Virus record (IMG/VR): IMGVR_UViG_3300042691_034458
Span: 53,468-73,467 of that record
Strand: one strand, 5' to 3'
DNA: 20,000 nt
From: an uncultured virus (IMG/VR IMGVR_UViG_3300042691_034458)
Lineage: Duplodnaviria; Heunggongvirae; Uroviricota; Caudoviricetes
In this document: positions 1 through 17,719 of the stretch, in pieces
How the letters are laid out: each line of letters opens with the position of its first letter
Numbering within the stretch: the stretch's first letter is position 1
Translations under genes and position numbers: made by a program
Notes under the pieces: generated by a model
What the model was told of the DNA's origin: nothing
Seen by the model: the letters and a program-made list of their open reading frames with translations, nothing else
Databases searched by the model: none

Positions 1-1
1 G

Positions 2-181
2 AGTTTTAACAAAAAAATTATTACTAAAGAAAAATTAATTGAAGCTCTTAATAGTGAGATTTCATTAGAGAAATTTTTTTCTGCGGATTCAATAGTTTTT
101 AAAGATGATTTATCTCATTATGCTTTTGGGTTATTTAAAGAAGGATTCTCAAAAGAAGAAATTTTTAAAAAAATCTTGTAA
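2..181 (+). CDS. 3' end of a hypothetical protein (truncated by the window start)
   Basis: Frame 2 is open from the window edge to TAA at 179-181 (SFNKKIITKEKLIEALN...EEIFKKIL*). Not in the ORF track because its start is outside the window. Confidence 0.7.
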   Translation, partial: SFNKKIITKEKLIEALNSEISLEKFFSADSIVFKDDLSHYAFGLFKEGFSKEEIFKKIL

Positions 182-198
182 ATAGTTGATTACTACGT

Positions 199-228
199 AT
201 TATGAGTTAGTTTTAAATAACTCATAAT
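199..228. promoter_or_regulatory. Perfect 11-bp inverted repeat (ATTATGAGTTA-N8-TAACTCATAAT); possible operator or RNA hairpin
   Basis: Arms 199-209 and 218-228 are exact reverse complements and end 4 nt before the ATG at 233. It overlaps a weak TTGATT(186)-N16-TAGTTT(208) promoter-like pair. Function is inferred. Confidence 0.45.
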
Positions 229-232
229 TCAC

Positions 233-2965
233 ATGGAAAAAAAACTAAATATTTTAGCACACGCCTCTTTTATTGGTAAAACCGGTTATGCTAATCATGC
301 TAAATCATTTTTTTGCGCGTTAAATAAGTATGCTAATGTTAAAGTTAGAAATCTGACAGTAGGTGATAGTTGGTGTGGATTATCGGAAAAACCTCATGAT
401 AAAGAAGAGTATTTTACCGATGAAATGCGTAATATGCTTATACTGCAAACATTATACGAACAAGATAATACAAGAAAAGATTATCCAATATACGGTTACG
501 ATGGGTCTTTCATTCCTGATATTCATATCGTTTTAAATGATGTTAATAACCCATATTTTTATGATAACTATGATGGATATCGCATAGCTTATAATGTTTG
601 GGAATCAACGGAATACCCAAAAGATTTTTTTGAAAGATTATTTTATTTTCATGAGGTTTGGGTACCATCTAAATGGCAAAAAGATAATTTAATTAAACAA
701 GGTTACCCAAAGGAAAGAATTTCGGTTGTTCCAGAAGGTGTTGACCCTGAAGTTTTTAAACCAACAAATGAAATTGATTTATCAGAAAAGTTTACATTTT
801 TACTTTTTGGTAGGTGGGAATATAGAAAATCAACAAGTGAAATAATTAGAGCGTTTAATGAAGAATTTAAAAATGAGGATGTTAACTTAGTTGTTTGTGC
901 AAATAATCCATTTGCTAATGATGGGTTTAAAACAACTGAAGAAAGAATAATTGCAAATGGTTTGGAAAATAAAAATCTTAAAATAGTTAATTTTCCAACT
1001 AGAGAAGAATATATTAATTATTTAAAAAATGGTCATGTTTTTATTTCATGTGCTAGAAGTGAGGGGTGGAATCTACCTTTAATAGAAGCAATGGCTTGTG
1101 GTACGCCATCAATTTATTCAAACTGGGGAGCACAACTTGAATTTGCTGATGGATTAGGAATTCCTGTTAAAGTTACTGATTTTGTTTCAGCTAAAAACCA
1201 AGATAATTCATTTGTTGGCGATTATATAGAACCAGATTTTAACGATTTGAAATTAAAAATGAGAATGGTCTATAATGATTATAAATCATTTAAAGAAAAT
1301 GCTTTATTAGAATCTGAAACAATTCACAGAAATTTTAATTGGGATTTGGTGGCTAAAAATGCTAATAATATTTTACAAAAAAAGGTAAATGACTTTGTTT
1401 TTGTTACTACCGGTAACGAAAATTATATGCCTCTTATTGAATGTTTAGTTAAGTCTTTAAATGAGTTTTCAAAATTTAAAATTATTGTTTATGGGATAAA
1501 TTGTGATGTACCATTTGATTATCCAAATTTAATAAAAAGAAGATTAAATATTGAAGAATACTCAGAACATGATAGGTGGTTTTGGAAGCAATACGCATGT
1601 ATTGAGTCAATTAACGAATCATTTGAAAATTTTGTTTGGGTTGATGGGGACGTTGTTGCAAATTTTAATATTGATAATATAATCAATTATTTCCCTTATG
1701 TTGGGAATTATCCGCTATCTGACATACACAGACAAAAAGAATTCTATGGATTTTTTTATGAAAATGGTGTTAAATATGAGCAACTATTTAATGAAAATCT
1801 TAGTAAATACTTAAATGTTACACCACATTTACCATTTATGCACGTTTGTCTTTTCATTTACAATAAAACCTGCAAATGGTTTTTTGATGAGATTATAAAC
1901 CTCTATAAATCAACAGATTTAAATAAATATAGGCATTTATTCTTATGGAATGATGAAGGTGCTGATAATGCAATTAGATCGAAGTTTAATTTAAAAAACC
2001 ATTTACCGTTATCTAATTTTGATGTTTCATCATATGATGGCGAATCATATGAGTTTATTAATAACCAACTATCTGATTTTTATACATTTTGGGAGAAAGA
2101 TGGTCCATATAATTTTAATAAAATTTATGGACTTCAATATATTCCTGAAAATAAAAAAGATATTATCTACTTCCACGGTAACAAAAATGTTGACGCAGCA
2201 AATAAAATGATTGATTTTATTAAAATAAAAAGAGACAATTCTTTTTACGAATCAAATAATTTTTATACTTCAAAAAATGTAATAACAGATTTTAGTGATA
2301 TAAAAAATATTGAGGGCGGAACTATTTGGGTTGCTGAAAATTACGGTTGGTCACACGCAATATATCATGAAATTTATAACTTACAGGATTACTATTTAAG
2401 TAGAAAAAAACAAATAAATGATGGGGATATTGTTGTTGATTTAGGAGGTAATATTGGTATCTTCAATAGATGGGCTTATTCACAAGGAGCGTCTAAAGTT
2501 ATCTCATTTGAACCAGATAGAAGATATTTTGAATTATTGAAGAAAAACACAAGTCCTAATTCAATTCTTTTTAATGCGGCGATGTCTGATAGGATTGGGG
2601 AGTTGAGTCTATTTGAGAGCGACCATTTGGGTGGTTCAAATATATTTGGTGTGCCTAGTAACACAAAAAATTACAAGGTCCGGACTTATACATTAGATTT
2701 TTTATTTGATACAGATTTAATTACTCACATTGACTTTTTAAAGGTTGACGTTGAGGGTGCAGAACATCTAATTTTTAAAGGAATTAGCGATAACAATTTA
2801 TCTAAAGTTAAAACTATTTCAATGGAATATCATCACTCACATTTTAATTTTGATGAAAAATTACGTGATGATTTTATTAATAGATTTGTTAGTCTTGGCT
2901 TCAATTCTTATCTTTTATTTATGGGGACAAATAATGCATTACAAATGATATATTTTTATAGATAA
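233..2965 (+). CDS. Three-domain fusion: GT4 (GT-B) glycosyltransferase + GT-A-like DxD transferase + FkbM-family methyltransferase
   Basis: GT4 motifs: TGYA, WES, VWVPS, GRWEYRK and the RSEGWNLPLIEAMACGTP (E-x7-E) signature (~233-1390). Middle domain has WVDGDVV (DxD), WNDEG and YFHGNK (~1390-2230). C-terminus has FkbM motifs VVDLGGNIG, SFEP and FLKVDVEGAE (~2350-2965). Confidence 0.85.
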   Translation: MEKKLNILAHASFIGKTGYANHAKSFFCALNKYANVKVRNLTVGDSWCGLSEKPHDKEEYFTDEMRNMLILQTLYEQDNTRKDYPIYGYDGSFIPDIHIVLNDVNNPYFYDNYDGYRIAYNVWESTEYPKDFFERLFYFHEVWVPSKWQKDNLIKQGYPKERISVVPEGVDPEVFKPTNEIDLSEKFTFLLFGRWEYRKSTSEIIRAFNEEFKNEDVNLVVCANNPFANDGFKTTEERIIANGLENKNLKIVNFPTREEYINYLKNGHVFISCARSEGWNLPLIEAMACGTPSIYSNWGAQLEFADGLGIPVKVTDFVSAKNQDNSFVGDYIEPDFNDLKLKMRMVYNDYKSFKENALLESETIHRNFNWDLVAKNANNILQKKVNDFVFVTTGNENYMPLIECLVKSLNEFSKFKIIVYGINCDVPFDYPNLIKRRLNIEEYSEHDRWFWKQYACIESINESFENFVWVDGDVVANFNIDNIINYFPYVGNYPLSDIHRQKEFYGFFYENGVKYEQLFNENLSKYLNVTPHLPFMHVCLFIYNKTCKWFFDEIINLYKSTDLNKYRHLFLWNDEGADNAIRSKFNLKNHLPLSNFDVSSYDGESYEFINNQLSDFYTFWEKDGPYNFNKIYGLQYIPENKKDIIYFHGNKNVDAANKMIDFIKIKRDNSFYESNNFYTSKNVITDFSDIKNIEGGTIWVAENYGWSHAIYHEIYNLQDYYLSRKKQINDGDIVVDLGGNIGIFNRWAYSQGASKVISFEPDRRYFELLKKNTSPNSILFNAAMSDRIGELSLFESDHLGGSNIFGVPSNTKNYKVRTYTLDFLFDTDLITHIDFLKVDVEGAEHLIFKGISDNNLSKVKTISMEYHHSHFNFDEKLRDDFINRFVSLGFNSYLLFMGTNNALQMIYFYR

Positions 2966-5700
2966 TGGCGCACGTAGAACAAAGAAATTTTTGCATTAAA
3001 GTAAAAGAAAAGTTTCCTGATTTTTTTAAAAATAAAAAAGTCTTGGATATTGGTTCATTAGACATAAATGGTAGTAATCGAGATTTATTTGAGGATTGTG
3101 ATTATATAGGATTAGACGTTGGTGAAGGTAGGAATGTCGATGTGGTATCTGTTGGTCATTTATATGATGCTCCAGATAGTTTTTTCGATACGATTATTTC
3201 TACTGAAGTCTTTGAACACGATATGTTCTATGAGGAAACCGTTAAAAACATAATGAGAATGTTAAAACCCGGTGGCTTATTTGTATTTACCTGTGCCGCA
3301 CCGGGAAGACCGGAGCATGGAACTAGACGATGTGGTGAAGAGTGCGCTCCATTATTGATACAAATTTCAGAAGAATGGGCTGACTATTATAAAAATTTAG
3401 ATAGCCATGATTTTAAAATTATACCAAGTTTTAATGAAACATTTCCCGATGGTTATTTTGAATTAAATAATTTATATCTAGAAATACCATCTGATTTGTA
3501 TTTTTATGGTATAAAAGGTGGTGAGAAATATTACATAAATAATATTGTTACAGAATACAATAAACCAGAATTTAATGAACATATTTTTGTTATTGATTCT
3601 TGGCCTGACGATGAAAAAAAAGAAAATGATTTAGTTAATTTAATTAAAAAATTAAAATCATTTAATATTCAAATTTTACTAGCCGGACATTATCCGATTA
3701 AAGAAGAAATACAAAAAATGGTGGATTATTATATTTTTGATAAAAATAATCCATTATTACTTTCTAGTGAATTTAATTCGTTTGATGTTGGTAGTGGAAG
3801 ATGGGCAGAAACTTCAGAATATAGAATAGATATGTCAATGGTCTTTCATCATGATTATGCAATATGGGAAACAATGAGAACGGCATTTAATTTTTGTAAA
3901 TTTTTAAATAAAAAATACATTCATTTCTTAGAATATGATAATAATCCAAATGTTTTCCAATATAAACAATGTTTTATTGAACAAATAATTAATCATGATG
4001 CAATCATATACGAATATAGTTTAGATTCAGCAAAAAATTTAAATCCATATTGTGCCACTTTTATTTTTTCAATAAAAACAGATATCGCATTAAAATTAAT
4101 TTCACAAATAAATTCAAAAACGGAATATTTTACTAACAAACCTAAAGGTTGGCAGTTAGAGCGAGTTTTTTTAGAAAAATTAACTAATGTTACAAATAAC
4201 ATAAAACTTTCAGAATATATTGCAAATGAAAATGAATTAAATACTCAAGCAGTTTGGAATAGAGATGGTATAGTTAAAAATGGTGCAATATTTCAATCCT
4301 ACTTAGCTGTTGATTATAAAAATCATTTATATTTAGAACTAATATCTGGTTTTGATAGTAAAAAAGCTGATAAAGATTATATTATAGAGATTGAGTATCT
4401 TTCAACAAGAAAGTTTATAACATTAAAAAAAGATAACATGATGATTGTTCCGTTAGGGGAATATCACGTTGGAGGTTATGTTAAATTATATTATGAGGGG
4501 GTTTTAATTTTTAATGAATTTCTATATAAATCAGCAAAAAAATTTAGAGAAGTGAGTTCAATTATTTTAAAAAATGAGTCACTACCTGAACCCAAAATTA
4601 ATATTAATTTTATTGATGGGGCGTTTGTTGAAATATTAGATGATATTGATTCTAAATATGATGTTGAATTTATAGATAAGCAAACAAATCGTGTAATTTT
4701 TGGAACAACAATAAAAAATAATTGTTGGGCTAAATGTAATAAAAAATATTTTATTGATTGGAAAATCAAAATTAAATCACAATACGGTAAAGAATATACA
4801 TATGACTTAGATTTAAAAAATCAAAATGTTTTGATTTCATTTGAGTCTAAATCCTTAGGGGATACTTTAGCGTGGATGTCATATGTTGAGGCTTTCGGTA
4901 TCAAACACGGATGTAATGTTATCTGCTCAACATTCCACAATGATTTATTTGTAAACCAATATAAAAATATTAAATTCGTTAAACCGGGAAATACAGCTAG
5001 TAATATAATTGCTCTTTATAGATTAGGTGTTTTTTATAATGGAAATAATTTTAATGAGGAATATCATTTAATGGACCCAAAAAAGGAACCACTATTAAAA
5101 ATAGCTTCCGACATATTGGGATTAGAATATAAAGAATTAAAACCAAGTCTTCCCGTTTTATCAATAAAAAAAGAAAAACGAGTTTGTATAGCAACACATT
5201 CAACCGCACAATGCAAGTATTGGAATAACCCAACTGGTTGGCAAGAAGTTGTTGATTTCTTGATAGAAAATGGATATGAAGTTAGATTGTTGTCAATTGA
5301 AGAAGATGGATATATGGGTAATAAAAATCCTATCGGTGTTACACAACAACCAAAAGGTGAAATAACAGATGTCCTTAAAACATTACAGGAATCGGAATTT
5401 TTTATTGGTATTAGTAGCGGACTAAGCTGGTTAGCTTGGGCATCTGGAATTAAAACAATACTAATATCCGGTTTTACTGATAAATATTTAGAACCATTAA
5501 ATGATATTTATCGGGTAATAAATAAAGAAGTATGTCATGGGTGTTGGCACACACATAAATTTGACGCTGGCGACTGGAATTGGTGTCCAATACACAAAGG
5601 AACATCTAGAGAATTTGAATGCTCTAAATCAATAACCGCAGACCAAGTTATTAATTTAATTAAAAATGAAAATTTATGTTCAAATTGCGTCATATCGTGA
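2965..5700 (+). CDS. Fusion: class I SAM methyltransferase + uncharacterised GT-like domain + autotransporter O-heptosyltransferase-like (Aah/TibC, BAHT) domain
   Basis: N-terminal methyltransferase motifs VLDIGS, DTIISTEVFEHD and LKPGG. From ~4591: NFIDGAFVEI, KKYFIDWKI, SLGDTLAW, KYWNNPTGW, FFIGISSGLSWLAW, ISGFT and the four-Cys cluster CHGCW...WCP...FECSKSIT, matching the BAHT iron-finger pattern. Coupled to the upstream gene by a TAATG overlap. Confidence 0.85.
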   Translation: MAHVEQRNFCIKVKEKFPDFFKNKKVLDIGSLDINGSNRDLFEDCDYIGLDVGEGRNVDVVSVGHLYDAPDSFFDTIISTEVFEHDMFYEETVKNIMRMLKPGGLFVFTCAAPGRPEHGTRRCGEECAPLLIQISEEWADYYKNLDSHDFKIIPSFNETFPDGYFELNNLYLEIPSDLYFYGIKGGEKYYINNIVTEYNKPEFNEHIFVIDSWPDDEKKENDLVNLIKKLKSFNIQILLAGHYPIKEEIQKMVDYYIFDKNNPLLLSSEFNSFDVGSGRWAETSEYRIDMSMVFHHDYAIWETMRTAFNFCKFLNKKYIHFLEYDNNPNVFQYKQCFIEQIINHDAIIYEYSLDSAKNLNPYCATFIFSIKTDIALKLISQINSKTEYFTNKPKGWQLERVFLEKLTNVTNNIKLSEYIANENELNTQAVWNRDGIVKNGAIFQSYLAVDYKNHLYLELISGFDSKKADKDYIIEIEYLSTRKFITLKKDNMMIVPLGEYHVGGYVKLYYEGVLIFNEFLYKSAKKFREVSSIILKNESLPEPKININFIDGAFVEILDDIDSKYDVEFIDKQTNRVIFGTTIKNNCWAKCNKKYFIDWKIKIKSQYGKEYTYDLDLKNQNVLISFESKSLGDTLAWMSYVEAFGIKHGCNVICSTFHNDLFVNQYKNIKFVKPGNTASNIIALYRLGVFYNGNNFNEEYHLMDPKKEPLLKIASDILGLEYKELKPSLPVLSIKKEKRVCIATHSTAQCKYWNNPTGWQEVVDFLIENGYEVRLLSIEEDGYMGNKNPIGVTQQPKGEITDVLKTLQESEFFIGISSGLSWLAWASGIKTILISGFTDKYLEPLNDIYRVINKEVCHGCWHTHKFDAGDWNWCPIHKGTSREFECSKSITADQVINLIKNENLCSNCVIS

Positions 5701-6913
5701 CCCGCAATTAATTCCGACAATTAAAAATTTATTAGAAAATTCAAAAAATCCAGAAAATTTAAGGATTGGTATTGCTAGACAATATCATCCAGAAGATAAA
5801 TTTGATGATTTGTCTGAGTATGATAACGATGAACGATTTAGAATTTTAAATATTCCATATGAAGAATCTTTAGGTGTTTGTTGGGCTAGACATTTGATTC
5901 AACAACTTTATGATAATGAGGAATATACCCTTCAGATAGATTCTCACATGAGATTTGAAAAAGATTGGGATGAAACATTAATTAATATGCTTGAAGGATT
6001 AAAAAAAGATGGTTATAGAAAGCCACTATTAACAGCATATGTACCATCATTTAATCCTGAAAATGACCCTAATGATAGAGTCAAGGTTCCTTGGCGGATG
6101 GTTTTTGATAAGTTTACACCAGAAGGTGTTGTATTTTTTCTTCCTGAGGTTATCCAAAATTGGAAACAATTAGATAAACCAATTCCTGCTAGATTTTACT
6201 CTGCACATTTTTGTTTTACAATTGGACAATTTGCGTTAGAGGCGCAACATGACCCCGAATATTATTTTCATGGTGAAGAGATTTCTATCGCAGCAAGAGC
6301 ATATACACATGGATATGATTTATTTCATCCGCATAAGGTCATTCTTTGGCATGAATATACTAGAAAGGGTAGAACAAAGCATTGGGACGATATACAAAAT
6401 TGGTCAGCTTTAAACAAAGAATCACACAGAAGAAATAGAGTATTATTTGGTATGGATAATGAAATTCAAAACATTGATTTTGGTAGATTTGGTTTTGGTA
6501 AATTAAGAACTTTAAGAGATTATGAAAAATATGTTGGTTTATTATTTGAAAAACGTGCTATACAGCAATACACGTTAGATAAAAAATATGCACCAAATCC
6601 ATATACATTTAATGATGAAAATGAGTGGAAAAATAGTTTTGCATCAAAGTTTAAATATGATATAAAAGTTCCAAAAATTAATTTACAAGAAAAAGATTAT
6701 GAGTTTTTTGCTATTGCTTTTCACGACAAAAAAGATGAAACGTTATACAGAAAAGATGCAGACAAGATTGAAATTTTTAATTCTTTTAAGACAGTTGATG
6801 ACTTTATAACAATTAGGAGAGAATTTAATAATGAACAAATTCCGGCGTATTGGGTTGTTTGGCCTTATAGTAAAACAAAAGGATGGTGCGATAGATTGGT
6901 AGGTGAAATTTAA
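5666..6913 (+). CDS. GT60/Gnt1-like (Skp1-type) protein O-GlcNAc transferase family glycosyltransferase
   Basis: IYVQIASYRDP, GVCWARH, LQIDSHMRF (DxH), FHGEEI, AYTHGYDLF and WHEY match the Dictyostelium Gnt1 / Pfam GlcNAc family pattern. Overlaps the upstream gene by 35 nt. Confidence 0.8.
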   Translation: MKIYVQIASYRDPQLIPTIKNLLENSKNPENLRIGIARQYHPEDKFDDLSEYDNDERFRILNIPYEESLGVCWARHLIQQLYDNEEYTLQIDSHMRFEKDWDETLINMLEGLKKDGYRKPLLTAYVPSFNPENDPNDRVKVPWRMVFDKFTPEGVVFFLPEVIQNWKQLDKPIPARFYSAHFCFTIGQFALEAQHDPEYYFHGEEISIAARAYTHGYDLFHPHKVILWHEYTRKGRTKHWDDIQNWSALNKESHRRNRVLFGMDNEIQNIDFGRFGFGKLRTLRDYEKYVGLLFEKRAIQQYTLDKKYAPNPYTFNDENEWKNSFASKFKYDIKVPKINLQEKDYEFFAIAFHDKKDETLYRKDADKIEIFNSFKTVDDFITIRREFNNEQIPAYWVVWPYSKTKGWCDRLVGEI

Positions 6914-6923
6914 TTATTTGATA

Positions 6924-6930
6924 TATTTAT
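6924..6930 (+). promoter_or_regulatory. TATTTAT motif, putative late promoter
   Basis: 15 nt before the ATG at 6946; the same motif precedes four other putative virion-associated genes. Confidence 0.45.
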
Positions 6931-6945
6931 TATTAAAAATAATAA

Positions 6946-7311
6946 ATGGAATTCTTTATTAAAAAAAACGCAACACTTCCTGTTTTAAAAATGCAAGTTT
7001 TAAATAATGGTAGGCATGAATATAAAACATTTATGAATTTACTTGAAACTGCGACAATTTCATTTACAATGATTAATGAAGCTACTGGAATACCAAAAAT
7101 AGCAAATGCTCCAGCATATATAACAGATAAAATTTTTGAAAATCCTAATGCTGATAGGGAATATTATGTTTATTATCTTTTTTCACAGAAAGACACTAAT
7201 AAGGTAGGACGTTATCAGGGTCAATTTGTACTAGCCTTGAATAACGGGACATTAATTTGTCCAATCAGAGAGGATTTATACATAAATATAACGGATAGTA
7301 CAATTTCATAA
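6946..7311 (+). CDS. Putative virion structural protein, BppU N-terminal-like (paralogue 1)
   Basis: FIKKNATLP, ISFTM, YYxF...DT..VGRYQGQF and PxxxxLYINI pattern recalls baseplate upper protein N-terminal Ig-like domains. Paralogue of the next gene. Confidence 0.5.
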   Translation: MEFFIKKNATLPVLKMQVLNNGRHEYKTFMNLLETATISFTMINEATGIPKIANAPAYITDKIFENPNADREYYVYYLFSQKDTNKVGRYQGQFVLALNNGTLICPIREDLYINITDSTIS

Positions 7312-7313
7312 AA

Positions 7314-7814
7314 ATGAATTTTTTTATAAAAAAAAATGCAACACTACCATTTTTGGTATTAAAAATAATTAAAGGTGAGGTAGATGATTTCTATGAATAT
7401 TTTGATTCATTATCTTCAACCACAATTAATTTCTCAATGAGAGATACTGAAACAAAAAAATTAAAAATAGTTAATGATTCATGTAACATAGAAAAAAATG
7501 AAAATGAAGAAAGAGATGAATATTTAATTTATTATCAATTTAAAAATCACCATACCAAATTAATAGGTCGCTACGAAGCGGAATTTAATATTCAAGAAAA
7601 TCAAAAAAAAATAGGTTTACCATTAAAAAATAAACTCTATATTAATGTTGTTGATAGTTTTGCGGCAAATAATCTTTCATATAGTTCTACTACAGCAACA
7701 ATAGTAAGTAATAATTGTTGTGTAACATCTATAACACAAGAAACTTTCTTCTTATTAACAGAAGATAATATAATACTTGCAACTGAAGATGGTGAAAATA
7801 TTCTATGGATATAA
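7314..7814 (+). CDS. Putative virion structural protein, BppU N-terminal-like (paralogue 2) with C-terminal LTED repeats
   Basis: Shares FFIKKNATLP, YYxF, GRYxxxF and LYIN..DS with 6946-7311. Extra tail ends LLTEDNIILATEDGENILWI. Confidence 0.5.
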   Translation: MNFFIKKNATLPFLVLKIIKGEVDDFYEYFDSLSSTTINFSMRDTETKKLKIVNDSCNIEKNENEERDEYLIYYQFKNHHTKLIGRYEAEFNIQENQKKIGLPLKNKLYINVVDSFAANNLSYSSTTATIVSNNCCVTSITQETFFLLTEDNIILATEDGENILWI

Positions 7815-7821
7815 TATTTAT
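7815..7821 (+). promoter_or_regulatory. TATTTAT motif, putative late promoter
   Basis: 14 nt before the ATG at 7836. Confidence 0.45.
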
Positions 7822-7835
7822 ATTTAAAAAAGATT

Positions 7836-9104
7836 ATGGCTAATAAAAAAATTAGTAACTTACCTGAGTATAACACACCACAACCAAATGATGTGTTACC
7901 AATTGTTAATGTTGCTAATAGCGTAACACAAAAAGTACTATTTTCAGCAATTAGTCAAACAATAACATCAGGATTAGTTGATGTTTTTGTGACTGGTGGT
8001 ACTTATTCAGCTGGAACAGCAACATTTATAAATAATACTGGCGGAACGTTTAGTGTTAGTGGCTTTACCGATAGTCAAGCAGGTTCCTCAGGAACATCAG
8101 GGACAAGTGGCTCATCTGGCTCTAGCGGAACATCAGGGATAAGCGGCTCTTCAGGAAGTTCTGGAACATCTGGTACAAGTGGTTCATCAGGAAGTTCTGG
8201 TACAAGTGGTTCATCTGGTAGTTCAGGAACATCTGGAACAAGTGGTTCATCAGGAAGTTCTGGTACAAGTGGTTCGTCAGGTTCTTCAGGAACAAGTGGT
8301 TCATCTGGTAGTTCAGGAACATCTGGAACAAGTGGTTCATCAGGAAGTTCTGGTACAAGTGGTTCGTCAGGAAGTTCTGGTACAAGTGGTTCGTCAGGTT
8401 CTTCAGGAACAAGTGGTTCATCAGGAAGTTCTGGTTCTTCAGGTACAAGTGGAATAAATGGTTCTTCTGGAACATCAGGAACAAGTGGTTCATCTGGTAG
8501 TTCAGGAACATCTGGAACAAGTGGTTCATCAGGAAGTTCTGGTACAAGTGGTTCATCAGGAAATTCTGGTTCTTCAGGAACAAGTGGTTCATCTGGTAGT
8601 TCAGGAACATCAGGAACAAGTGGTTCATCAGGAAGTTCTGGCACAAGTGGTTCGTCAGGTTCTTCAGGAACAAGTGGTTCATCTGGTAGTTCAGGAACAT
8701 CTGGAACAAGTGGTTCATCAGGAAGTTCTGGTACAAGTGGTTCGTCAGGTTCTTCTGGTACAAGTGGTTCATCAGGAAGTTCTGGTTCTTCAGGTACAAG
8801 TGGAATAAATGGTTCTTCTGGAACATCTGGTACAAGTGGTTCTTCAGGAAGTTCTGGTACAAGTGGTTCATCAGGTTCTAGCGGAACATCTGGCACAAGT
8901 GGTTCTTCAGGAAGTTCAAGTGTTACTAATTTTCCGGTAACTTTTAATAATTCTGGAAGTGGAAATGCATCTGGGGTTAATTTTGATGGTTCTGTTGCAC
9001 GAACTGTTAGTTTTAATACAATAGGTGCAAATAAAGTAATAACCTCTGGTACCGCTGCTCCGACCGGAGGTAATGATGGAGACATCTATTTACAATTTAC
9101 ATAA
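7836..9104 (+). CDS. Putative fibre protein with collagen-like Gly-Ser/Thr-Ser repeat
   Basis: N-terminal KKISNLP...DVLPIV and VTGGTY segments, a central 279-aa Gly-X-Y run, and a C-terminal GTAAPTGGNDGDIYLQF motif typical of phage fibre proteins. Confidence 0.7.
   Translation: MANKKISNLPEYNTPQPNDVLPIVNVANSVTQKVLFSAISQTITSGLVDVFVTGGTYSAGTATFINNTGGTFSVSGFTDSQAGSSGTSGTSGSSGSSGTSGISGSSGSSGTSGTSGSSGSSGTSGSSGSSGTSGTSGSSGSSGTSGSSGSSGTSGSSGSSGTSGTSGSSGSSGTSGSSGSSGTSGSSGSSGTSGSSGSSGSSGTSGINGSSGTSGTSGSSGSSGTSGTSGSSGSSGTSGSSGNSGSSGTSGSSGSSGTSGTSGSSGSSGTSGSSGSSGTSGSSGSSGTSGTSGSSGSSGTSGSSGSSGTSGSSGSSGSSGTSGINGSSGTSGTSGSSGSSGTSGSSGSSGTSGTSGSSGSSSVTNFPVTFNNSGSGNASGVNFDGSVARTVSFNTIGANKVITSGTAAPTGGNDGDIYLQFT
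8082..8918 (+). repeat. Coding tandem repeat, 9-bp unit x93 (GSS/GTS triplets) with higher-order duplications
   Basis: 837 nt from GGT at 8082 to TCA at 8918 with Gly at every third codon. The variant GGAATAAATGGTTCTTCTGGAACATC recurs at 8451 and 8802, 351 nt apart. Confidence 0.95.
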
Positions 9105-9113
9105 TCGCTCAAT

Positions 9114-9293
9114 ATGATTAAAATAGAAAAAAATACAGAAGTAGAATCAAACATAAACTACATAACTTGTGAAAGTGGGGAATTTAACGATACCGATTTA
9201 GTTAAGTGTAGACTTAAAACCAAACTTTCAGAAAACACCGTTATGTTTCTAGTATCACAAATAAAAAACACAACCAATGAAAGTAGCATTTGA
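9114..9293 (+). CDS. Small hypothetical protein (59 aa), below the ORF-track cutoff
   Basis: ATG 9114 to TGA 9291-9293: MIKIEKNTEVESNINYITCESGEFNDTDLVKCRLKTKTSENTVMFLVSQIKNTTNESSI. Fills the gap 9 nt after the upstream stop and overlaps the next start by 17 nt. Confidence 0.6.
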   Translation: MIKIEKNTEVESNINYITCESGEFNDTDLVKCRLKTKLSENTVMFLVSQIKNTTNESSI

Positions 9294-11418
9294 ACAGATA
9301 TTTAATGGGTCGCTAGACCAAGTTGCAATAGGTGGTGCTTATGACGCAACAAAAATAAACAGAGGTAAGCATACAGGACAATTCAATCTTGGAGCAAACG
9401 CGATTGATAAATTCGTAGGTCCAGCACCTGTTGGTGTTGCTAACTTCGGTCAATCATCATTAGCTATACCCTCTCAGTTTGTTCATCCAGTCAAAATAAC
9501 AGACGATTTATTTTGGATTTTTGGTGCGGATGTTGCTAGTGCAGGAGCTACACGTAGAGTCCAATTATGGACTTTTGTCCCTTCTACCAATACGTACACT
9601 TTTATAGGCGCAATTACTTGTACATTTCCTACCGCTACTGCTCATACAGTAAGAGGCATTCGTGTTATTCTTGAAAACTACACAACAGGTACAGTAGGTG
9701 TAAGCGGTACGGCAGTAACAGGTTCGGGAACCACTTGGAATACAGACAGACTTTCTGTAGGTTCACGCATAGGGTTTGGTTCTACCAATCCTAATAATAT
9801 TACACAGTGGTTTCAAATATCTGCTATTGGTTCTGATACAACAATCACGTTGACAACTTCAGCAGGAACAGTAGCATCAGGGACACCTTATGTCATTCAG
9901 GATTTAATGATTGTGCAAGCTACAACCAACGCAACTGTTACTAATGGTGGATTGTTTGTGACAAAAGGGTTACAATATGGCGATTTCCAAAATCCAGCAA
10001 TAGTCATTCCTGCTGCTACTACCGTTGATAGGATAAAGGCGGTGTATTGGTTGAAAGATGCGGCCACTATAACGAATGACGTTATTGGTGGATGTGCCTT
10101 AGGAGATAGAGATAGTTGGACTCAACAATACATCTATTCTACTGAAGGTGCATCAACTACATTAGCGATTTACCGATATAACATTAGAGCGGCTCTTACT
10201 CCAAGTGCGGGTGCATTTACACTTACTGGGACAGATATTGTTATTACGGGAAACCAAGCAGTAACGGGTAACATTTCTCAGTTTAACAATGGTAGAGTGG
10301 CTACATTGCAACACGGAGCGGGCAGTGGTGTTCCTTCTTTATACCTATTCACTACTACTCGTATTATTCGTGTTCCTATTTCAAACATAACAGCAGGTAA
10401 CACTTCCTTTGTTGCAGATACTATGAGCGAAGTCGTTCCGGGCGGTACTGAAACAAATGTTGCTATTGGCACATTTGCTACATTTGATGTTGCTCAATCA
10501 ATGGATAAACTTGTTATCGCTGGGGGGGCAGGCACAGTATCATTGTACATCACCGATTATTACACAGGGGGTCAGCAAATGGATAGGAGATCAAATATCA
10601 TATCAACACAAATGGTTTCATCACTGCGTGACGTTGACAGTCCAATTTATGTTCACCAAATTCCAAGCCAAGCGCCTTCTGTTTGGGTTGAAGATGGATG
10701 GTTATTTTGGATGTATGGTACGACCACAACAACTAATACAAATGCTTTAAGTGTATATCCACTTGCAGCAGATTTGGATTTTCAAGCTGAAGTAAACAAC
10801 AGGATAATACTACCTAAAATAACATTGGGTGCTACACCCGCAAAATTATACAGAGTTGCTACCACCAGTATGGGAAATGTAGGCGATGTTACAATGGGCG
10901 TATCGCCTGATTTTTACAGAATTCAGGTTCGCACATCAGGTATTGATAACAATAGTGGAGGATGGACTGATATATCACAAGACGGTGATTTATCAGGACT
11001 TGGCACACCTTCAACTATCCAATTTGCTTTGCAGTTTAGAACTGCGGGTGTAATTATGTTACCTGCAAGGGTTTTAAGTTTGGCTTTATTGTACGAAACT
11101 GACGATGCTCTACCTTCTCAATATCGTTGGAATTACGCCGATTTCAACACTTCTAACGGAACATTTGCGTGGGTTCAAGCAATTCTTTTTGGAACGACGA
11201 TTGGAACACACACCATCAACATTTATCGTGCCGATACGGATGCCTTGGTGCTTACACAAGCAAGCACATCAACTACCAATGGTACATTCGAGAATTGGGA
11301 TGGTAGTGCGTGGGTAGCTGGTTTAGGTGCCGATACTGTAGGAAGAAGGAGAAGGTTTGTTCCTTCAGGTTCATTACCCGGATCAGTTGATTTATATGCT
11401 AAAATAACAATTGCTTAA
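9277..11418 (+). CDS. Putative tail/receptor-binding structural protein (Thr/Gly/Ala-rich, beta-rich)
   Basis: Contains GTVGVSGTAVTGSGTTW...GSRIGFG...ISAIGSDTTITL, a small module I recognise from phage tail spike/fibre proteins. Composition and position fit a virion protein. Confidence 0.6.
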   Translation: MKVAFEQIFNGSLDQVAIGGAYDATKINRGKHTGQFNLGANAIDKFVGPAPVGVANFGQSSLAIPSQFVHPVKITDDLFWIFGADVASAGATRRVQLWTFVPSTNTYTFIGAITCTFPTATAHTVRGIRVILENYTTGTVGVSGTAVTGSGTTWNTDRLSVGSRIGFGSTNPNNITQWFQISAIGSDTTITLTTSAGTVASGTPYVIQDLMIVQATTNATVTNGGLFVTKGLQYGDFQNPAIVIPAATTVDRIKAVYWLKDAATITNDVIGGCALGDRDSWTQQYIYSTEGASTTLAIYRYNIRAALTPSAGAFTLTGTDIVITGNQAVTGNISQFNNGRVATLQHGAGSGVPSLYLFTTTRIIRVPISNITAGNTSFVADTMSEVVPGGTETNVAIGTFATFDVAQSMDKLVIAGGAGTVSLYITDYYTGGQQMDRRSNIISTQMVSSLRDVDSPIYVHQIPSQAPSVWVEDGWLFWMYGTTTTTNTNALSVYPLAADLDFQAEVNNRIILPKITLGATPAKLYRVATTSMGNVGDVTMGVSPDFYRIQVRTSGIDNNSGGWTDISQDGDLSGLGTPSTIQFALQFRTAGVIMLPARVLSLALLYETDDALPSQYRWNYADFNTSNGTFAWVQAILFGTTIGTHTINIYRADTDALVLTQASTSTTNGTFENWDGSAWVAGLGADTVGRRRRFVPSGSLPGSVDLYAKITIA

Positions 11419-11720
11419 TGAGTTTACAATTAACATTCGGTGGAGCAGAGACTGTTCTGGTACGAGATACCGGAACAGCTAATGCTGTGCAAGGATTTGT
11501 TAGTGAAGAAATTGTTGTTTCTAAGAACGTAACTGCACTACCTACCAACTTTTTATTCCAATTATATGAATACATTCAGGCTCCACTAGTATCAATAACG
11601 GGTACAGTTGCTTGGATAAAAGTAAGTGGAGTTTGGAAGCAAGCCATAGTATGGTTAAAGGTAGGTGGTGTTTGGAAGATAACAACCCCGTTTATTAAAG
11701 TAAGTGGAGTTTGGAAGTGA
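11418..11720 (+). CDS. Small tail-associated protein with 3x KV(S/G)GVWK repeat
   Basis: C-terminus WIKVSGVWKQAIVWLKVGGVWKITTPFIKVSGVWK; TAATG coupling with the upstream gene. Confidence 0.6.
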   Translation: MSLQLTFGGAETVLVRDTGTANAVQGFVSEEIVVSKNVTALPTNFLFQLYEYIQAPLVSITGTVAWIKVSGVWKQAIVWLKVGGVWKITTPFIKVSGVWK

Positions 11721-11723
11721 TTA

Positions 11724-11752
11724 TTGACAATACTAATCATAATTCTTATTTT
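11724..11752 (+). promoter_or_regulatory. Sigma70-like promoter for the DNA polymerase gene
   Basis: TTGACA (11724-11729), 17-nt spacer, TATTTT (11747-11752), in the 93-nt intergenic gap. Confidence 0.55.
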
Positions 11753-11813
11753 TAAGAAAAAGGTAAATGTCATTATGTATGACAGCAAATAAACCACTTA
11801 AATTTATAAACTT

Positions 11814-16182: not shown

Positions 16183-17712
16183 TTAATCTAAAATAAATAA
16201 TAAGTCCTTATCTTTAAAGATACAAACGCCCTCATCAATTATTGTGTTAGCGTTTGAAAATACATATGTTTTTTTGTTTTTTTCAAAAATTAACCAATCG
16301 GTTTTGTATTTTTTTATTGAAGATGACGGTACTATTTTAATGGTATTATTTTCGGTTACAATTTCTTTAGCTGGTTTTATTTGCGCATTTGCCACCAATC
16401 CATTAAGCTTAACTTGCACATCAATTCCTCCGCGCATATCATCACTATTACCGTAACCAGAAATTTTTGCAACATTGTTTTCACCAAATCGTTTAATTAA
16501 AGCATCCACCACTAAATTTTCAATCGAATCCCCCTTTTTTGTTGTCTCTGAAAGAGCGGTAATTAATTTTTTAAATGTTTTGGACTCCTTACTAAAAATT
16601 CTATACTTAAATAAATCAATATGTTCCATTAAAGTGGAAATCTGTTTTTTTAATTCTTCCTTATTTTGAGAATTATTAAGGAAATCAATAGAATCTTTAC
16701 CATTGATTTCTAAGACTTTATTAATGTCTTCAGTCAAAATCTTTAATCCTAAAATGTTTGTGTTTAATTTATTAAGGACAGACCATCCCTTTTTCTCAAC
16801 ATCATAAACACCGTGTATATCATTTATTATTCTAAAATTTTCATTAAAAACTTCAGAGAGAACATTACCAATGAAAACTTTATAACCTTCAAATAATTCC
16901 TTATTTTTTTTATAAACTTCTAAGTAACTTCCGAAGTTTTCTCTACCATAAGATTCTTCTAATATTTCAGAACTATTATTCATACTCTCTTTAATATTTT
17001 CATTTTGTTGATTTTCTAGTCGTTCATTAATATATTCCCAATTAACGACTCTCCAGAAATTTTCAATATACTTATCTTTCTGGTTTCTATAAGTAAGATA
17101 GTAAGCATGTTCCCATAAATCAAGTCCTAATAGGGGAAAACCGCCATTATCAACAATACCCATCAACGGGTTGTCTTGATTAGGTGTGTTCATTATTTTT
17201 AATGTACCTCTTTTTGTTAAAACCAACCAAACCCATCCGGAACCAAAACGTTCTTTTGCGGAAGCTTCAAATTTTTTTCTAAATTCTTTTATTCCACCAA
17301 AATTTTTTTGAATTATTTTAAGAATTGGACCGCTAGCTTCTTGTTGTTTTGGAGATAACATCTTCCAAAAAATTGCATGATTATATGCTCCACCGGCATT
17401 ATTTCTAATATCGGTGTTATATTGACTAATTGTTTTGACAATATGTTCTAAATCATCCTCTTTTTTTCCGCTTTTTGTTAAAGCATCATTTAATTTATTA
17501 ACATAACCAATATAATGTTTGTTATAATGGTAACTCATAGTTTCCGGGTCAATAAATTTTTTTAGCGAGTCAAACTTATACGGTAACTTTTCAATTGGAA
17601 TTTTACCTTTTACGTTTTTAACCTTTTTTTCTTCTCGAAGGTAACCCTTTTTCATTTCTACTCTGTAGATTTCTTCCTCCAATCTGTCAATTCTATTAAT
17701 TAAATTTTTCAT
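16183..17712 (-). CDS. sodA: Fe/Mn superoxide dismutase (Mn-type signature) fused to a ~275-aa C-terminal region with a possible PD-(D/E)XK-like domain
   Basis: SOD domain (~17598-17017): LPY, HYNKH, NNAGGAYNHAIFW, FGSGWVWL, NQDNP and DLWEHAYY, with all four metal ligands present. GG and QD are Mn-type hallmarks. Likely start is the ATG at 17712. Confidence 0.9.
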   Translation of the reverse strand: MKNLINRIDRLEEEIYRVEMKKGYLREEKKVKNVKGKIPIEKLPYKFDSLKKFIDPETMSYHYNKHYIGYVNKLNDALTKSGKKEDDLEHIVKTISQYNTDIRNNAGGAYNHAIFWKMLSPKQQEASGPILKIIQKNFGGIKEFRKKFEASAKERFGSGWVWLVLTKRGTLKIMNTPNQDNPLMGIVDNGGFPLLGLDLWEHAYYLTYRNQKDKYIENFWRVVNWEYINERLENQQNENIKESMNNSSEILEESYGRENFGSYLEVYKKNKELFEGYKVFIGNVLSEVFNENFRIINDIHGVYDVEKKGWSVLNKLNTNILGLKILTEDINKVLEINGKDSIDFLNNSQNKEELKKQISTLMEHIDLFKYRIFSKESKTFKKLITALSETTKKGDSIENLVVDALIKRFGENNVAKISGYGNSDDMRGGIDVQVKLNGLVANAQIKPAKEIVTENNTIKIVPSSSIKKYKTDWLIFEKNKKTYVFSNANTIIDEGVCIFKDKDLLFILD

Positions 17713-17719
17713 GACCAAA

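What the first reader, a model, noticed from the sequence alone, without database searches (positions are those of the whole stretch)
233..9104. Candidate phage-encoded virion O-glycosylation system next to its Ser/Thr-rich substrate
Seen: three overlapping genes with 4-5 glycosyltransferase domains and 2 methyltransferase domains, followed within ~1 kb by a fibre-like gene whose 279-aa repeat is nearly two-thirds Ser/Thr. Established: BAHT enzymes (Aah, TibC) O-glycosylate serines in repetitive adhesins, and GT60 enzymes start protein O-glycans on Hyp/Thr/Ser, so two of the families present act on proteins rather than DNA or LPS. Inference: the phage initiates, extends (GT4, GT-A) and O-methylates glycans on its own fibre. 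This would give a mucin-like appendage for stability, protease or antibody shielding, or adsorption.
Basis: partly seen in the sequence, partly recalled or inferred. Interest (0 to 1): 0.85.

Follow-up and report, generated by a model that had tools for sequence, protein, structure and literature searches.

The report
Phage sugar-coating genes beside collagen-like fibre
A large uncultured phage carries a block of sugar-adding and methyl-adding enzymes, one a true relative of the E. coli adhesin-glycosylating enzyme TibC, next to a proline-free collagen-like fibre made of Gly-Ser/Thr-Ser triplets, so it probably sugar-coats its own fibre, though no sugar has been measured.

Summary
Three overlapping genes (233-6913) hold five glycosyltransferase and two methyltransferase domains. 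A 422-aa fibre gene follows 923 nt later, with 93 unbroken Gly-X-Y triplets: 65% Ser/Thr, no Pro, no charged residue.

ORF2 residues 545-900 are a true BAHT (TibC/Aah) member: TIGR04414 scores 302 bits against a cut-off of 200. The catalytic Asp and four iron-finger Cys are kept, but the heptose-binding Arg-286 is Val.

Across viral contigs, all BAHT genes linked to such fibres fall in one clade of 47. In 16 of 28 sequence clusters the fibre starts within 300 nt of the enzyme, and in 23 of 28 within 5 kb. None of 70 bacterial BAHT loci has such a fibre. That clade never has Arg-286 (0 of 47; bacteria 13 of 13), so heptose is doubtful as the sugar.

GT60 is not tied to this fibre type. In relatives it mostly follows Thr/Pro-rich proteins.

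Best reading (0.65): soluble phage enzymes O-glycosylate and methylate the phage's own fibre, possibly stabilising its triple helix. Nothing is shown biochemically.

This scan noted the same pairing earlier on other DNA; four searches of the held papers found none that describes it. A cultured test case exists, Microcystis phage Mel-JY01.

The parts
233..2965 (+). ORF1, 910 aa, three-domain enzyme. GT4 (about aa 78-384, nt 464-1384), retaining GT-A/GT8-like domain (aa 386-693, nt 1388-2311), FkbM methyltransferase (aa 694-889, nt 2312-2899).
   Evidence: Pfam and PHROGs. TIGR01444 87.5 bits vs cut-off 37.7. Fold of the middle domain: glycogenin, WbbM, GT6 enzymes, E about 1e-6. Homologues of 51-72% identity lie just upstream of the BAHT gene in most fibre-linked loci.
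2965..5700 (+). ORF2, 911 aa. SAM methyltransferase (aa 1-184, nt 2965-3516), GT-A fold plus beta-sandwich (aa 186-544, nt 3520-4596), BAHT/TibC-like glycosyltransferase (aa 545-900, nt 4597-5664).
   Evidence: Kept relative to TibC: D633, T747, K751, W822 and Cys857/860/874/886. V803 stands in place of TibC Arg-286.
5666..6913 (+). ORF3, 415 aa, GT60-family (PF11397) glycosyltransferase.
   Evidence: Pfam 258.1 bits vs cut-off 21. phrog_24687 E 4e-163. 43-47% identical to genes of Xanthomonas phages XacN1 and Xoo-sp13 and Stenotrophomonas phages CM1 and RAS14.
6946..7311 (+). ORF4, 121 aa. Stand-alone copy of a domain that in relatives forms the N-terminus of Thr/Pro-rich stalk proteins.
   Evidence: Of 41 distinct homologous proteins, 11 carry a 60-aa window of at least 50% Ser/Thr.
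7314..7814 (+). ORF5, 166 aa. Paralogue of ORF4 with a short Ser/Thr/Cys-rich tail.
   Evidence: The BppU_N hit is below the Pfam cut-off.
7836..9104 (+). ORF6, 422 aa, collagen-like fibre and candidate substrate. N-terminal domain (nt 7836-8081), 93 G-S/T-S triplets (nt 8082-8918), 60-aa C-terminal domain (nt 8919-9101).
   Evidence: It is the only collagen-like frame in the 256-kb genome.
9277..11418 (+). ORF7, 713 aa. Probable fibre or tail protein, 20% Ser/Thr.
   Evidence: Weak PHROGs tail-fibre N-terminal hits, phrog_1591 E 1.7e-7. No Pfam or NCBIfam family.
11418..11720 (+). ORF8, 100 aa. Small protein with a C-terminal likeness to a minor tail protein.
   Evidence: phrog_6977 E 6.5e-7.

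Best explanation
This is a phage-encoded, cytoplasmic protein O-glycosylation cassette whose main target is the phage's own collagen-like fibre (ORF6).

Proposed mechanism:
- The TibC-like domain of ORF2 puts the first sugar on Ser/Thr side chains of the (GSS/GTS)93 tract.
- The fused or neighbouring GT-A, GT8-like and GT4 domains, and possibly GT60, extend the chains or add further ones.
- The FkbM and SAM methyltransferases cap the sugars with methyl groups.

The tract has no proline and no charged residue, which are the two known stabilisers of bacterial collagen helices. Dense glycosylation is therefore likely needed to fold or stiffen the triple helix, as well as to shield it.

Shown here: the domain identities, the conserved catalytic residues, and the genomic coupling. 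Inferred: the substrate, the order of steps, the sugar and the benefit. The sugar is probably not heptose.
For: 1. True BAHT member. TIGR04414 scores 302.1 bits vs cut-off 200. The alignment to TibC covers residues 24-384 of 406, E 1e-59. The catalytic Asp-110, Thr-226, Lys-230, Trp-305 and the four iron-finger Cys named in PMC4358343 (passages) are all kept. The family's only known acceptors are proteins.
2. Coupling across viral contigs. 142 viral contigs encode relatives, and the best 80 were examined. Of 28 clusters (80% identity) with at least 48% identity to the window's domain, 16 have a Ser/Thr-saturated G-X-Y gene within 300 nt downstream on the same strand. 23 have one within 5 kb, 2 more within 10 kb, and 3 have none. 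None of the 13 more distant clusters has one.
3. Neighbour enrichment. In 52 non-redundant loci, 23 of 102 immediately neighbouring genes are Ser/Thr-rich, against 19 of 682 genes further away (Fisher p 2e-11, not corrected for relatedness).
4. The coupling survives rearrangement. The fibre is found downstream-adjacent, 1-3.5 kb upstream, or on the opposite strand. Enzyme architectures vary: GT-A-BAHT, MTase-GT-A-BAHT, GT4-BAHT, and BAHT alone.
5. Bacterial control. 0 of 70 bacterial BAHT loci have such a gene. The one positive among 71 genome loci is a 238-kb contig in a MAG with 55% identity.
6. Within this phage. There is one BAHT gene and one collagen-like gene in 256 kb, three genes apart.
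7. The partners are real trimeric fibres. 8 of 8 tested hit Pfam Collagen and 4 of 8 end in Peptidase_S74.
8. ORF1-3 have no hydrophobic segment typical of a membrane helix (maximum 19-residue Kyte-Doolittle mean 1.19).
9. Thr glycosylation can make a Gly-Pro-Thr peptide triple-helical (passage in PMC11923368).
Against: - No glycan, mass shift or virion proteome exists for this phage.
- All fibre-linked BAHTs form one clade of 47 rows (SH-aLRT 99). The linkage could therefore be inherited gene order, and the Fisher p-values overstate independence.
- In this window the fibre is not adjacent to the BAHT gene. GT60, ORF4 and ORF5 lie between them.
- GT60 is conserved next to PolB in relatives whether or not a G-X-Y fibre is present (68 of 80 loci have none within 10 kb).
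- The same phage has Thr and Thr-Pro tracts in other fibre proteins. A further nine or so glycan-related genes lie upstream of the window. Other targets are therefore possible.
- TibC Arg-286, whose alanine mutant abolished or largely diminished heptosylation, is Val here. The activity may be altered.
- No nucleotide-sugar synthesis gene was seen in the ORFs scanned.
- That ORF6 is part of the virion is inferred from homology only.
Confidence: 0.65

Rival explanations
1. The enzymes glycosylate other phage proteins, such as capsid, tail tube or the Thr/Thr-Pro-tract fibre proteins encoded elsewhere. The collagen-like gene is only a syntenic neighbour.
For: GT60 in relatives follows Thr/Pro-rich proteins: 12 of 34 non-redundant loci, 11 of them Thr/Pro type. 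The phage has short Thr/Thr-Pro tracts in fibre-cluster proteins at G001 187.8-199.1 kb. Mycobacteriophage glycans sit on capsid and tail-tube C-termini (passage in PMC12619734 citing Freeman 2023). The fibre-BAHT link has a single phylogenetic origin.
Against: The BAHT-fibre adjacency persists at 48-98 nt spacing through about 50% sequence divergence and several domain architectures. The fibre is the only Ser/Thr-saturated protein among 285 ORFs in this genome.
Confidence: 0.15
2. The cassette modifies the host cell envelope (LPS, capsule, S-layer) or phage DNA, for exclusion of other phages or for evasion of restriction.
For: These are the commonest roles described for phage glycosyltransferases (passage in PMC12619734). 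GT4 and GT9-type folds are used in LPS synthesis. A weak LPS heptosyltransferase I hit (E 1.7e-4) lies under the BAHT hit.
Against: The BAHT equivalog model is passed well above its cut-off, while the LPS heptosyltransferase model is far below its own (20.9 vs 185.3 bits). There are no membrane segments. The coupling to fibre genes would be left unexplained. DNA-modification pathway genes were not looked for next to the cassette.
Confidence: 0.07
3. The BAHT-like domain has lost transferase activity and serves as a ring-shaped assembly chaperone for the fibre. The other domains act on unrelated glycans.
For: Loss of the sugar-binding Arg-286 in 47 of 47 clade members. In TibC the iron finger and thumb serve substrate handling and oligomerisation, and they are conserved here.
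Against: The catalytic Asp and three of four sugar-binding residues are essentially invariant across the 47-row clade (D 46 of 47 with 1 gap, T 46 of 47, K 47 of 47, W 47 of 47). That argues for retained catalysis.
Confidence: 0.05

Closest known systems
TibC-TibA and Aah-AIDA-I of E. coli (bacterial autotransporter heptosyltransferases, BAHT; TIGR04414; PDB 4RAP/4RB4; PMC4358343)
   Same: Same enzyme family by the curated HMM cut-off. Same domain order: N-terminal beta-barrel, GT-B core, thumb, iron finger. Catalytic Asp and four Cys kept. Soluble enzyme encoded next to a repetitive, Ser-rich, rod-like surface protein that it hyperglycosylates.
   Different: Encoded by a phage and fused behind a methyltransferase and a GT-A domain. 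The neighbour is a collagen-like G-S/T-S fibre, not a beta-helical autotransporter. Heptose-binding Arg-286 is replaced (Val here; 0 of 47 in the clade keep Arg). No autotransporter family was seen in the ORFs scanned.
Mycobacteriophage virion glycosylation (Freeman et al. 2023, Cell Host Microbe; known to me only from the citing passage in PMC12619734 and from recall; the paper itself is not held)
   Same: Phage-encoded glycosyltransferases decorate the phage's own structural proteins. A shielding role is proposed.
   Different: Different enzyme families. The targets there are C-termini of capsid and tail-tube subunits, not a collagen-like repeat. Actinobacterial hosts.
BclA of the Bacillus anthracis exosporium (Daubenspeck 2004, seen as a reference entry in PMC11923368; details recalled)
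   Same: Collagen-like Gly-X-Thr repeats carrying O-linked, partly methylated oligosaccharides on a surface filament.
   Different: Bacterial spore protein with Pro in the X position. The glycosyltransferases are unrelated to BAHT as far as I recall.
Thr-glycosylated collagens (Riftia cuticle collagen; the Ac-(Gly-Pro-Thr)10 model peptide; passage in PMC11923368)
   Same: Glycosylated Thr replaces hydroxyproline as the helix stabiliser. This is the mechanism I propose for a Pro-free fibre.
   Different: Animal collagen with galactose on Thr in the Y position and Pro in X. Here X is Ser/Thr and Y is Ser.
GT60 / PF11397 polypeptide alpha-GlcNAc-transferases of protists (T. cruzi mucin initiation: abstract of PMC3769586 seen in a search listing; Dictyostelium enzymes recalled)
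   Same: ORF3 passes the Pfam model. In related phages the gene sits directly after Thr/Pro mucin-like proteins.
   Different: Phage-encoded and without a membrane anchor. Acceptor and sugar unknown. Not specifically linked to the G-X-Y fibre.
Mimivirus collagen and fibril glycosylation (L230, R699; review PMC9614988 seen in a listing only; R699 structure 9e92 appeared as a weak fold match)
   Same: Virus-encoded enzymes modify virus-encoded collagen-like or fibril proteins.
   Different: Eukaryotic giant virus. The chemistry is hydroxylysine-linked glucose (recalled). No BAHT enzyme.

Membership tests
BAHT (TIGR04414 hepto_Aah_TibC) | Score above the curated equivalog cut-off over the full model | tested here: met
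   302.1 bits vs 200; model positions 12-372 of 374. In the six-frame genome search, 304.4 bits.
BAHT (TIGR04414 hepto_Aah_TibC) | Catalytic base Asp-110 and sugar-binding Thr-226, Lys-230, Trp-305 | tested here: met
   D633, T747, K751 and W822 align to these residues (residue list from PMC4358343). They are kept in 46-47 of 47 clade members.
BAHT (TIGR04414 hepto_Aah_TibC) | Heptose-binding Arg-286 | tested here: not met
   Val-803 here. The column holds Arg in 13 of 13 bacterial BAHTs, 16 of 25 other phage BAHTs and 0 of 47 in the fibre clade. This lowers the claim that the sugar is heptose. It does not lower family membership by homology.
BAHT (TIGR04414 hepto_Aah_TibC) | Iron-finger motif, four Cys (339, 342, 358, 370) | tested here: met
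   C857, C860, C874 and C886.
BAHT (TIGR04414 hepto_Aah_TibC) | Ring dodecamer via the beta-hairpin thumb (Phe-265, Val-266, Phe-368) | tested here: inconclusive
   Hydrophobic Y783, M784 and F884 occupy these positions. The oligomeric state was not modelled or measured.
BAHT (TIGR04414 hepto_Aah_TibC) | Acceptor is an autotransporter passenger with strand-loop-strand repeats | tested here: not met
   No autotransporter family appeared among the phage ORFs scanned (ORFs under 100 aa outside the window's contig and those already named by PHROGs were not scanned with Pfam). The conserved neighbour is a collagen-like fibre.
BAHT (TIGR04414 hepto_Aah_TibC) | ADP-heptose-dependent O-heptosylation of Ser | not testable with these tools
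   Needs an enzyme assay or mass spectrometry.
GT60 (Pfam PF11397 GlcNAc) | Score above the Pfam gathering cut-off | tested here: met
   258.1 bits vs 21, two stretches covering profile positions 2-44 and 95-351.
GT60 (Pfam PF11397 GlcNAc) | Transfers GlcNAc to Thr/Ser/Hyp of a polypeptide | not testable with these tools
   Context only. In 12 of 34 non-redundant loci the gene directly upstream is Ser/Thr-rich.
Collagen-like triple-helix protein (Pfam PF01391) | Uninterrupted Gly-X-Y repeats | tested here: met
   93 triplets without interruption. Pfam Collagen 140.7 bits vs 27.2.
Collagen-like triple-helix protein (Pfam PF01391) | Known helix stabilisers: Pro/Hyp, or Lys-Glu/Asp salt bridges | tested here: not met
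   No Pro, Lys, Arg, Asp or Glu in the 279-aa tract. The stabiliser list comes from PMC11923368 passages.
FkbM methyltransferase (TIGR01444 / PF05050) | Score above the curated cut-off | tested here: met
   87.5 bits vs 37.7. Pfam 60.3 vs 22.7.
Mycobacteriophage-type virion glycosylation | Glycans on the C-termini of capsid and tail-tube subunits | not tested
   Nothing was examined for this. The paper is not held.

The most novel reading that the evidence does not exclude
A phage-specific branch of the TibC/Aah family has given up the heptose-binding arginine and transfers a different sugar onto nearly every Ser/Thr of a proline-free, charge-free collagen-like fibre. This glycosylation, rather than hydroxyproline or salt bridges, is what lets the triple helix fold. 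That would be a glycosylation-dependent collagen made by a virus of bacteria, with the enzyme ring possibly threading the rod as TibC does with TibA.
Probability: 0.3. Interest if true: 0.85.

Novelty: new variant of a known kind. Interest (0 to 1): 0.64.

Why it matters
Self-glycosylation of phage particles has been shown, as far as I know, only for mycobacteriophages. The TibC/Aah family is known only from bacterial adhesins.

A widespread phage clade of this family tied to Ser/Thr collagen-like fibres would add three things:
- a new acceptor class for the enzyme family;
- a likely new donor sugar;
- a route by which aquatic jumbo phages make mucin-like, protease- and antibody-resistant appendages.

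It also offers a natural test of whether O-glycans can replace hydroxyproline in holding a collagen helix together, which bears on the design of recombinant collagens.

The question is testable now. A cultured phage, Microcystis phage Mel-JY01, carries the same pairing.

Tried and rejected
- Pfam on the two middle domains alone gave nothing usable. They were resolved only by fold prediction and Foldseek.
- The promoter/terminator scan of 1-12000 was no better than shuffles: 53 promoter-like sites vs 64 expected, 7 terminator-like vs 5. It says nothing about operon structure.
- GT60 as a partner of the G-X-Y fibre is rejected as a general rule: 12 of 80 loci.
- A search for nucleotide-sugar or ADP-heptose synthesis genes, by Pfam scans of the 256-kb relative, found none among the ORFs scanned.
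- The shadow frames on the opposite strand of ORF6 (336 and 249 aa) were considered and rejected as genes. The same artefact explains the minus-strand 'hypothetical proteins' annotated over the collagen-like frame of Mel-JY01.
- I considered a complex prediction for enzyme with fibre and did not run it. An enzyme-substrate pair with a low-complexity substrate is a poor case for that tool.
- Papers: four searches for phage BAHT or glycosylated collagen-like phage fibres and one for Mel-JY01 found no paper describing this. Freeman 2023 is not held.

Full report
**What the window is.** The window is the last 20 kb of a 73,467-bp viral contig. That contig matches positions 43,361-116,827 of a 256,029-bp viral contig, G001, with 2 mismatches. 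CheckV rates G001 85% complete. The phage has terminase, portal, prohead protease and major head protein upstream. It also has tail sheath, gp25-like and J-like baseplate proteins, family B DNA polymerase and a sigma factor. It is therefore a jumbo contractile-tailed phage of about 28% G+C. Phage proteins with a CHU_C type IX secretion domain and SprB repeats hint at a Bacteroidota host. I did not test this.

ORF1 (233-2965), ORF2 (2965-5700) and ORF3 (5666-6913) overlap by 1 and 35 nt.
- ORF1 is GT4 + a middle domain + FkbM methyltransferase.
- ORF2 is SAM methyltransferase + a middle domain + a TibC-like domain.
- ORF3 is GT60/PF11397.

The two middle domains have no Pfam match on their own. 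Models built from alignments of 19 and 17 phage homologues (both pLDDT 82) show their folds. ORF1's middle domain has a retaining GT-A fold like glycogenin, WbbM and the GT6 enzymes, E about 1e-6. ORF2's has a GT-A fold followed by a beta-sandwich, with weak matches to GlcAT-P and the glycosyltransferase domain of lysyl hydroxylase LH3, E about 5e-5.

ORF6 (7836-9104) has an 82-aa N-terminal domain, 93 uninterrupted Gly-X-Y triplets (GSS 53, GTS 36, three other kinds 4) and a 60-aa C-terminal domain. The tract is 64.5% Ser/Thr and holds no Pro, Lys, Arg, Asp or Glu.

**The TibC-like domain is a real family member with one telling difference.** ORF2 residues 545-900 score 302.1 bits on NCBI's equivalog model TIGR04414, cut-off 200. 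They align to TibC residues 24-384 of 406 at E 1e-59. I took the functional residues from passages of the TibC structure paper (PMC4358343).
- Kept: the catalytic base Asp-110 and the sugar-binding Thr-226, Lys-230 and Trp-305.
- Kept: the four iron-finger cysteines.
- Kept as hydrophobic residues: the thumb-tip positions.
- Not kept: Arg-286, whose alanine mutant abolished or largely diminished heptosylation in that paper. It is Val-803 here.

In an alignment of 85 sequences this column is Arg in 13 of 13 bacterial BAHTs and in 16 of 25 other phage BAHTs. It is Arg in 0 of 47 members of the clade that holds the window's enzyme (V 17, I 13, L 13, A 3, T 1). The bacterial rows were a sample: every fifth of 69, plus L187. 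Phage rows were the 72 distinct, stop-free sequences out of 94.

A scan of viral contigs with the BAHT domain found 142 relatives, and the best 80 loci were kept.
- Together with 13 further BAHT genes met in the GT60 loci, they form 41 clusters at 80% identity.
- Of the 28 clusters with at least 48% identity to the window, 16 have a gene with at least 30 aa of G-X-Y runs and at least 70% Ser/Thr at X/Y within 300 nt. In practice it lies 43-98 nt downstream on the same strand.
- A further 7, the window's own phage included, have one within 5 kb, and 2 more within 10 kb. Three have none (L027, L056, L138).
- None of the 13 more distant clusters has one.
- With a broader flag (any 60-aa window of at least 50% Ser/Thr) and one locus per 90% cluster, 23 of 52 loci have a flagged immediate neighbour. 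That is 23 of 102 neighbouring gene positions against 19 of 682 positions further away (Fisher p 2e-11). This p-value ignores relatedness.

A tree shows that every fibre-linked BAHT lies in one clade of 47 rows (SH-aLRT 99). The pairing probably arose once, so inherited gene order is a live alternative. The pairing has nonetheless survived about 50% sequence divergence, moves of the fibre to the other side or the other strand, and several enzyme architectures (GT-A-BAHT, MTase-GT-A-BAHT, GT4-BAHT, BAHT alone). An ORF1 homologue (GT4-GT8like-FkbM, 51-72% identical) sits just upstream in most of these loci.

The partners are real fibres: 8 of 8 tested hit Pfam Collagen and 4 of 8 end in the Peptidase_S74 chaperone domain of trimeric tail fibres. 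In two of the three clusters with no G-X-Y gene within 10 kb of the enzyme, other fibre-like genes lie nearby. L138 has Thr-Pro mucin-like proteins, and L056 has a proline-containing G-X-Y frame and several 20-22% Ser/Thr ORFs. L085, which the stricter G-X-Y rule also leaves out, has a Gly/Ser/Thr-rich protein.

**Controls.** Among 71 loci from species-representative bacterial and archaeal genomes, 70 have BAHT relatives of at most 39% identity (Burkholderiaceae, Acetobacteraceae, Negativicutes) and no such gene within 6 kb. The one positive is a 238-kb contig inside a MAG at 55% identity, which falls within the phage fibre clade in the tree. That scan uses exact peptide patterns from the window's own protein, so it favours close relatives. 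Within the 256-kb genome there is one BAHT gene and one collagen-like frame. No other ORF among 285 reaches 50% Ser/Thr in a 60-aa window; the next highest is 47%.

**GT60 behaves differently.** Of 80 GT60 loci, 12 have a Ser/Thr G-X-Y gene within 10 kb, the window's own phage included. GT60 is a conserved gene of this phage lineage, lying upstream of ORF4-like genes and PolB. In 12 of 34 non-redundant loci the gene directly upstream of GT60 is Ser/Thr-rich: 11 of these are Thr/Pro mucin-like and 1 is G-X-Y (12 of 68 neighbouring positions against 20 of 439 others, p 3e-4). The ORF4/ORF5 domain is, in 11 of 41 distinct relatives, the N-terminus of a protein with a Thr/Pro-rich tract. The window's phage has only short Thr or Thr-Pro tracts, in fibre-cluster proteins some 80-95 kb away. 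So GT60 may act on the collagen-like fibre here, but comparative data do not assign it to that fibre.

**How it most likely works.** ORF1-3 lack any segment hydrophobic enough for a membrane helix. BAHT enzymes act on proteins in the cytoplasm (PMC4358343). The tight co-directional packing from 233 to 11720 suggests co-expression, but the promoter/terminator scan was uninformative.

I propose the following. The BAHT domain starts O-glycans on the Ser/Thr of the fibre. The GT-A, GT8-like and GT4 domains, and perhaps GT60, add further sugars. The two methyltransferases O-methylate them.

The tract lacks both known stabilisers of collagen helices. Glycosylation of Thr turns a random-coil (Gly-Pro-Thr)10 peptide into a triple helix (passage in PMC11923368). 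I therefore think the sugars are structural as well as protective. The loss of Arg-286 across the clade argues that the donor is not ADP-heptose, or is bound differently. No nucleotide-sugar synthesis gene was seen in the phage ORFs scanned, so host pools would be used. All of this paragraph is inference.

**Comparison with what is known, and novelty.** Phage self-glycosylation is in print for mycobacteriophages; I saw this only as a citing passage and the paper itself is not held. Collagen-like surface proteins with O-glycans are known from Bacillus spores, and virus-encoded collagen modification from Mimivirus (both recalled, or seen as references or listings only). BAHT enzymes are known only with autotransporters.

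Four searches of the held library found no paper on phage BAHT enzymes or glycosylated collagen-like phage fibres. Earlier notes of this scan report the same BAHT-fibre pairing in at least 64 other genomes and GT60 with Thr-Pro proteins in at least 14. I reached both patterns from my own calls before reading those notes.

This window adds four things:
- both enzyme types in one overlapping gene block beside a single candidate fibre;
- the clade-wide loss of Arg-286;
- the bacterial negative control;
- a cultured carrier.

The cultured carrier is Microcystis phage Mel-JY01. It has a 1016-aa open GSS/GTS frame on the + strand at 2-3049, which GenBank annotates as minus-strand hypothetical proteins. 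A structural protein follows, and then a 1226-aa GT4...BAHT fusion labelled 'methyltransferase FkbM'.

**Verdict.** The feature is real and is more than chance. The GT60 and heptose parts are not. The chemistry remains untested.

Noticed in passing
own contig C1 31950-47547 (upstream of the window, - strand; loci L006 and L007): A second block of glycan genes: GT2, a CmcI-like and an FkbM methyltransferase, an RXYLT1-like protein, a hexapeptide acyltransferase, GT15-like, GT92/GT2_4, a double GT2 and a GT4-like protein. The phage therefore carries well over ten glycosyltransferase domains.
   Followed up: partly
window 16183-17718 (-): A 511-aa protein with a complete Fe/Mn superoxide dismutase at aa 43-233 and an unassigned C-terminal half of about 280 aa. 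A phage-encoded SOD fusion.
   Followed up: no
L258 (Microcystis phage Mel-JY01, PP395634.1) 2-3049 +: A 1016-aa open collagen-like GSS/GTS frame runs off the start of the linear record. GenBank instead annotates minus-strand 'hypothetical proteins' with Pro at every third residue, which are antisense shadows of the G-X-Y frame.
   Followed up: yes
G001 185985-186806 (L177:5985-6806): A sulfotransferase gene (Sulfotransfer_3, E 2e-19) lies inside the tail-fibre gene cluster, next to Cys-rich fibre proteins with Thr and Thr-Pro tracts and SprB repeats. Possible sulfation of fibre glycans or tyrosines.
   Followed up: no
G001 37779-39296 (L169:17779-19296, -), 178873-181005 and 192529-194430: Phage proteins carry a CHU_C type IX secretion sorting domain and SprB repeats, domains typical of Bacteroidota. 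This is a lead to the host phylum.
   Followed up: no
own contig C1 9199-12339; G001 155458-157908 and 157927-160878: The portal gene is 1046 aa and has an HNH endonuclease match inside it. A ribonucleotide reductase and another large gene carry LAGLIDADG domains. These are probable inteins or homing-endonuclease insertions.
   Followed up: no
window 6946-7814 and loci L088-L167: ORF4 and ORF5 are stand-alone paralogues of a roughly 120-aa domain. In related phages this domain heads proteins of 280-780 aa with Thr/Pro-rich stalks: 11 of 41 distinct homologues reach 50% Ser/Thr in a 60-aa window.
   Followed up: partly
L003 (Xanthomonas phage XacN1) and L004 (Xoo-sp13): In these cultured jumbo phages the GT60 gene is followed by a carbamoyltransferase. 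In XacN1 a 'glycosyltransferase family 9' gene and a gene of about 9.9 kb lie about 7-9 kb further on. I did not examine the composition of the giant gene.
   Followed up: no
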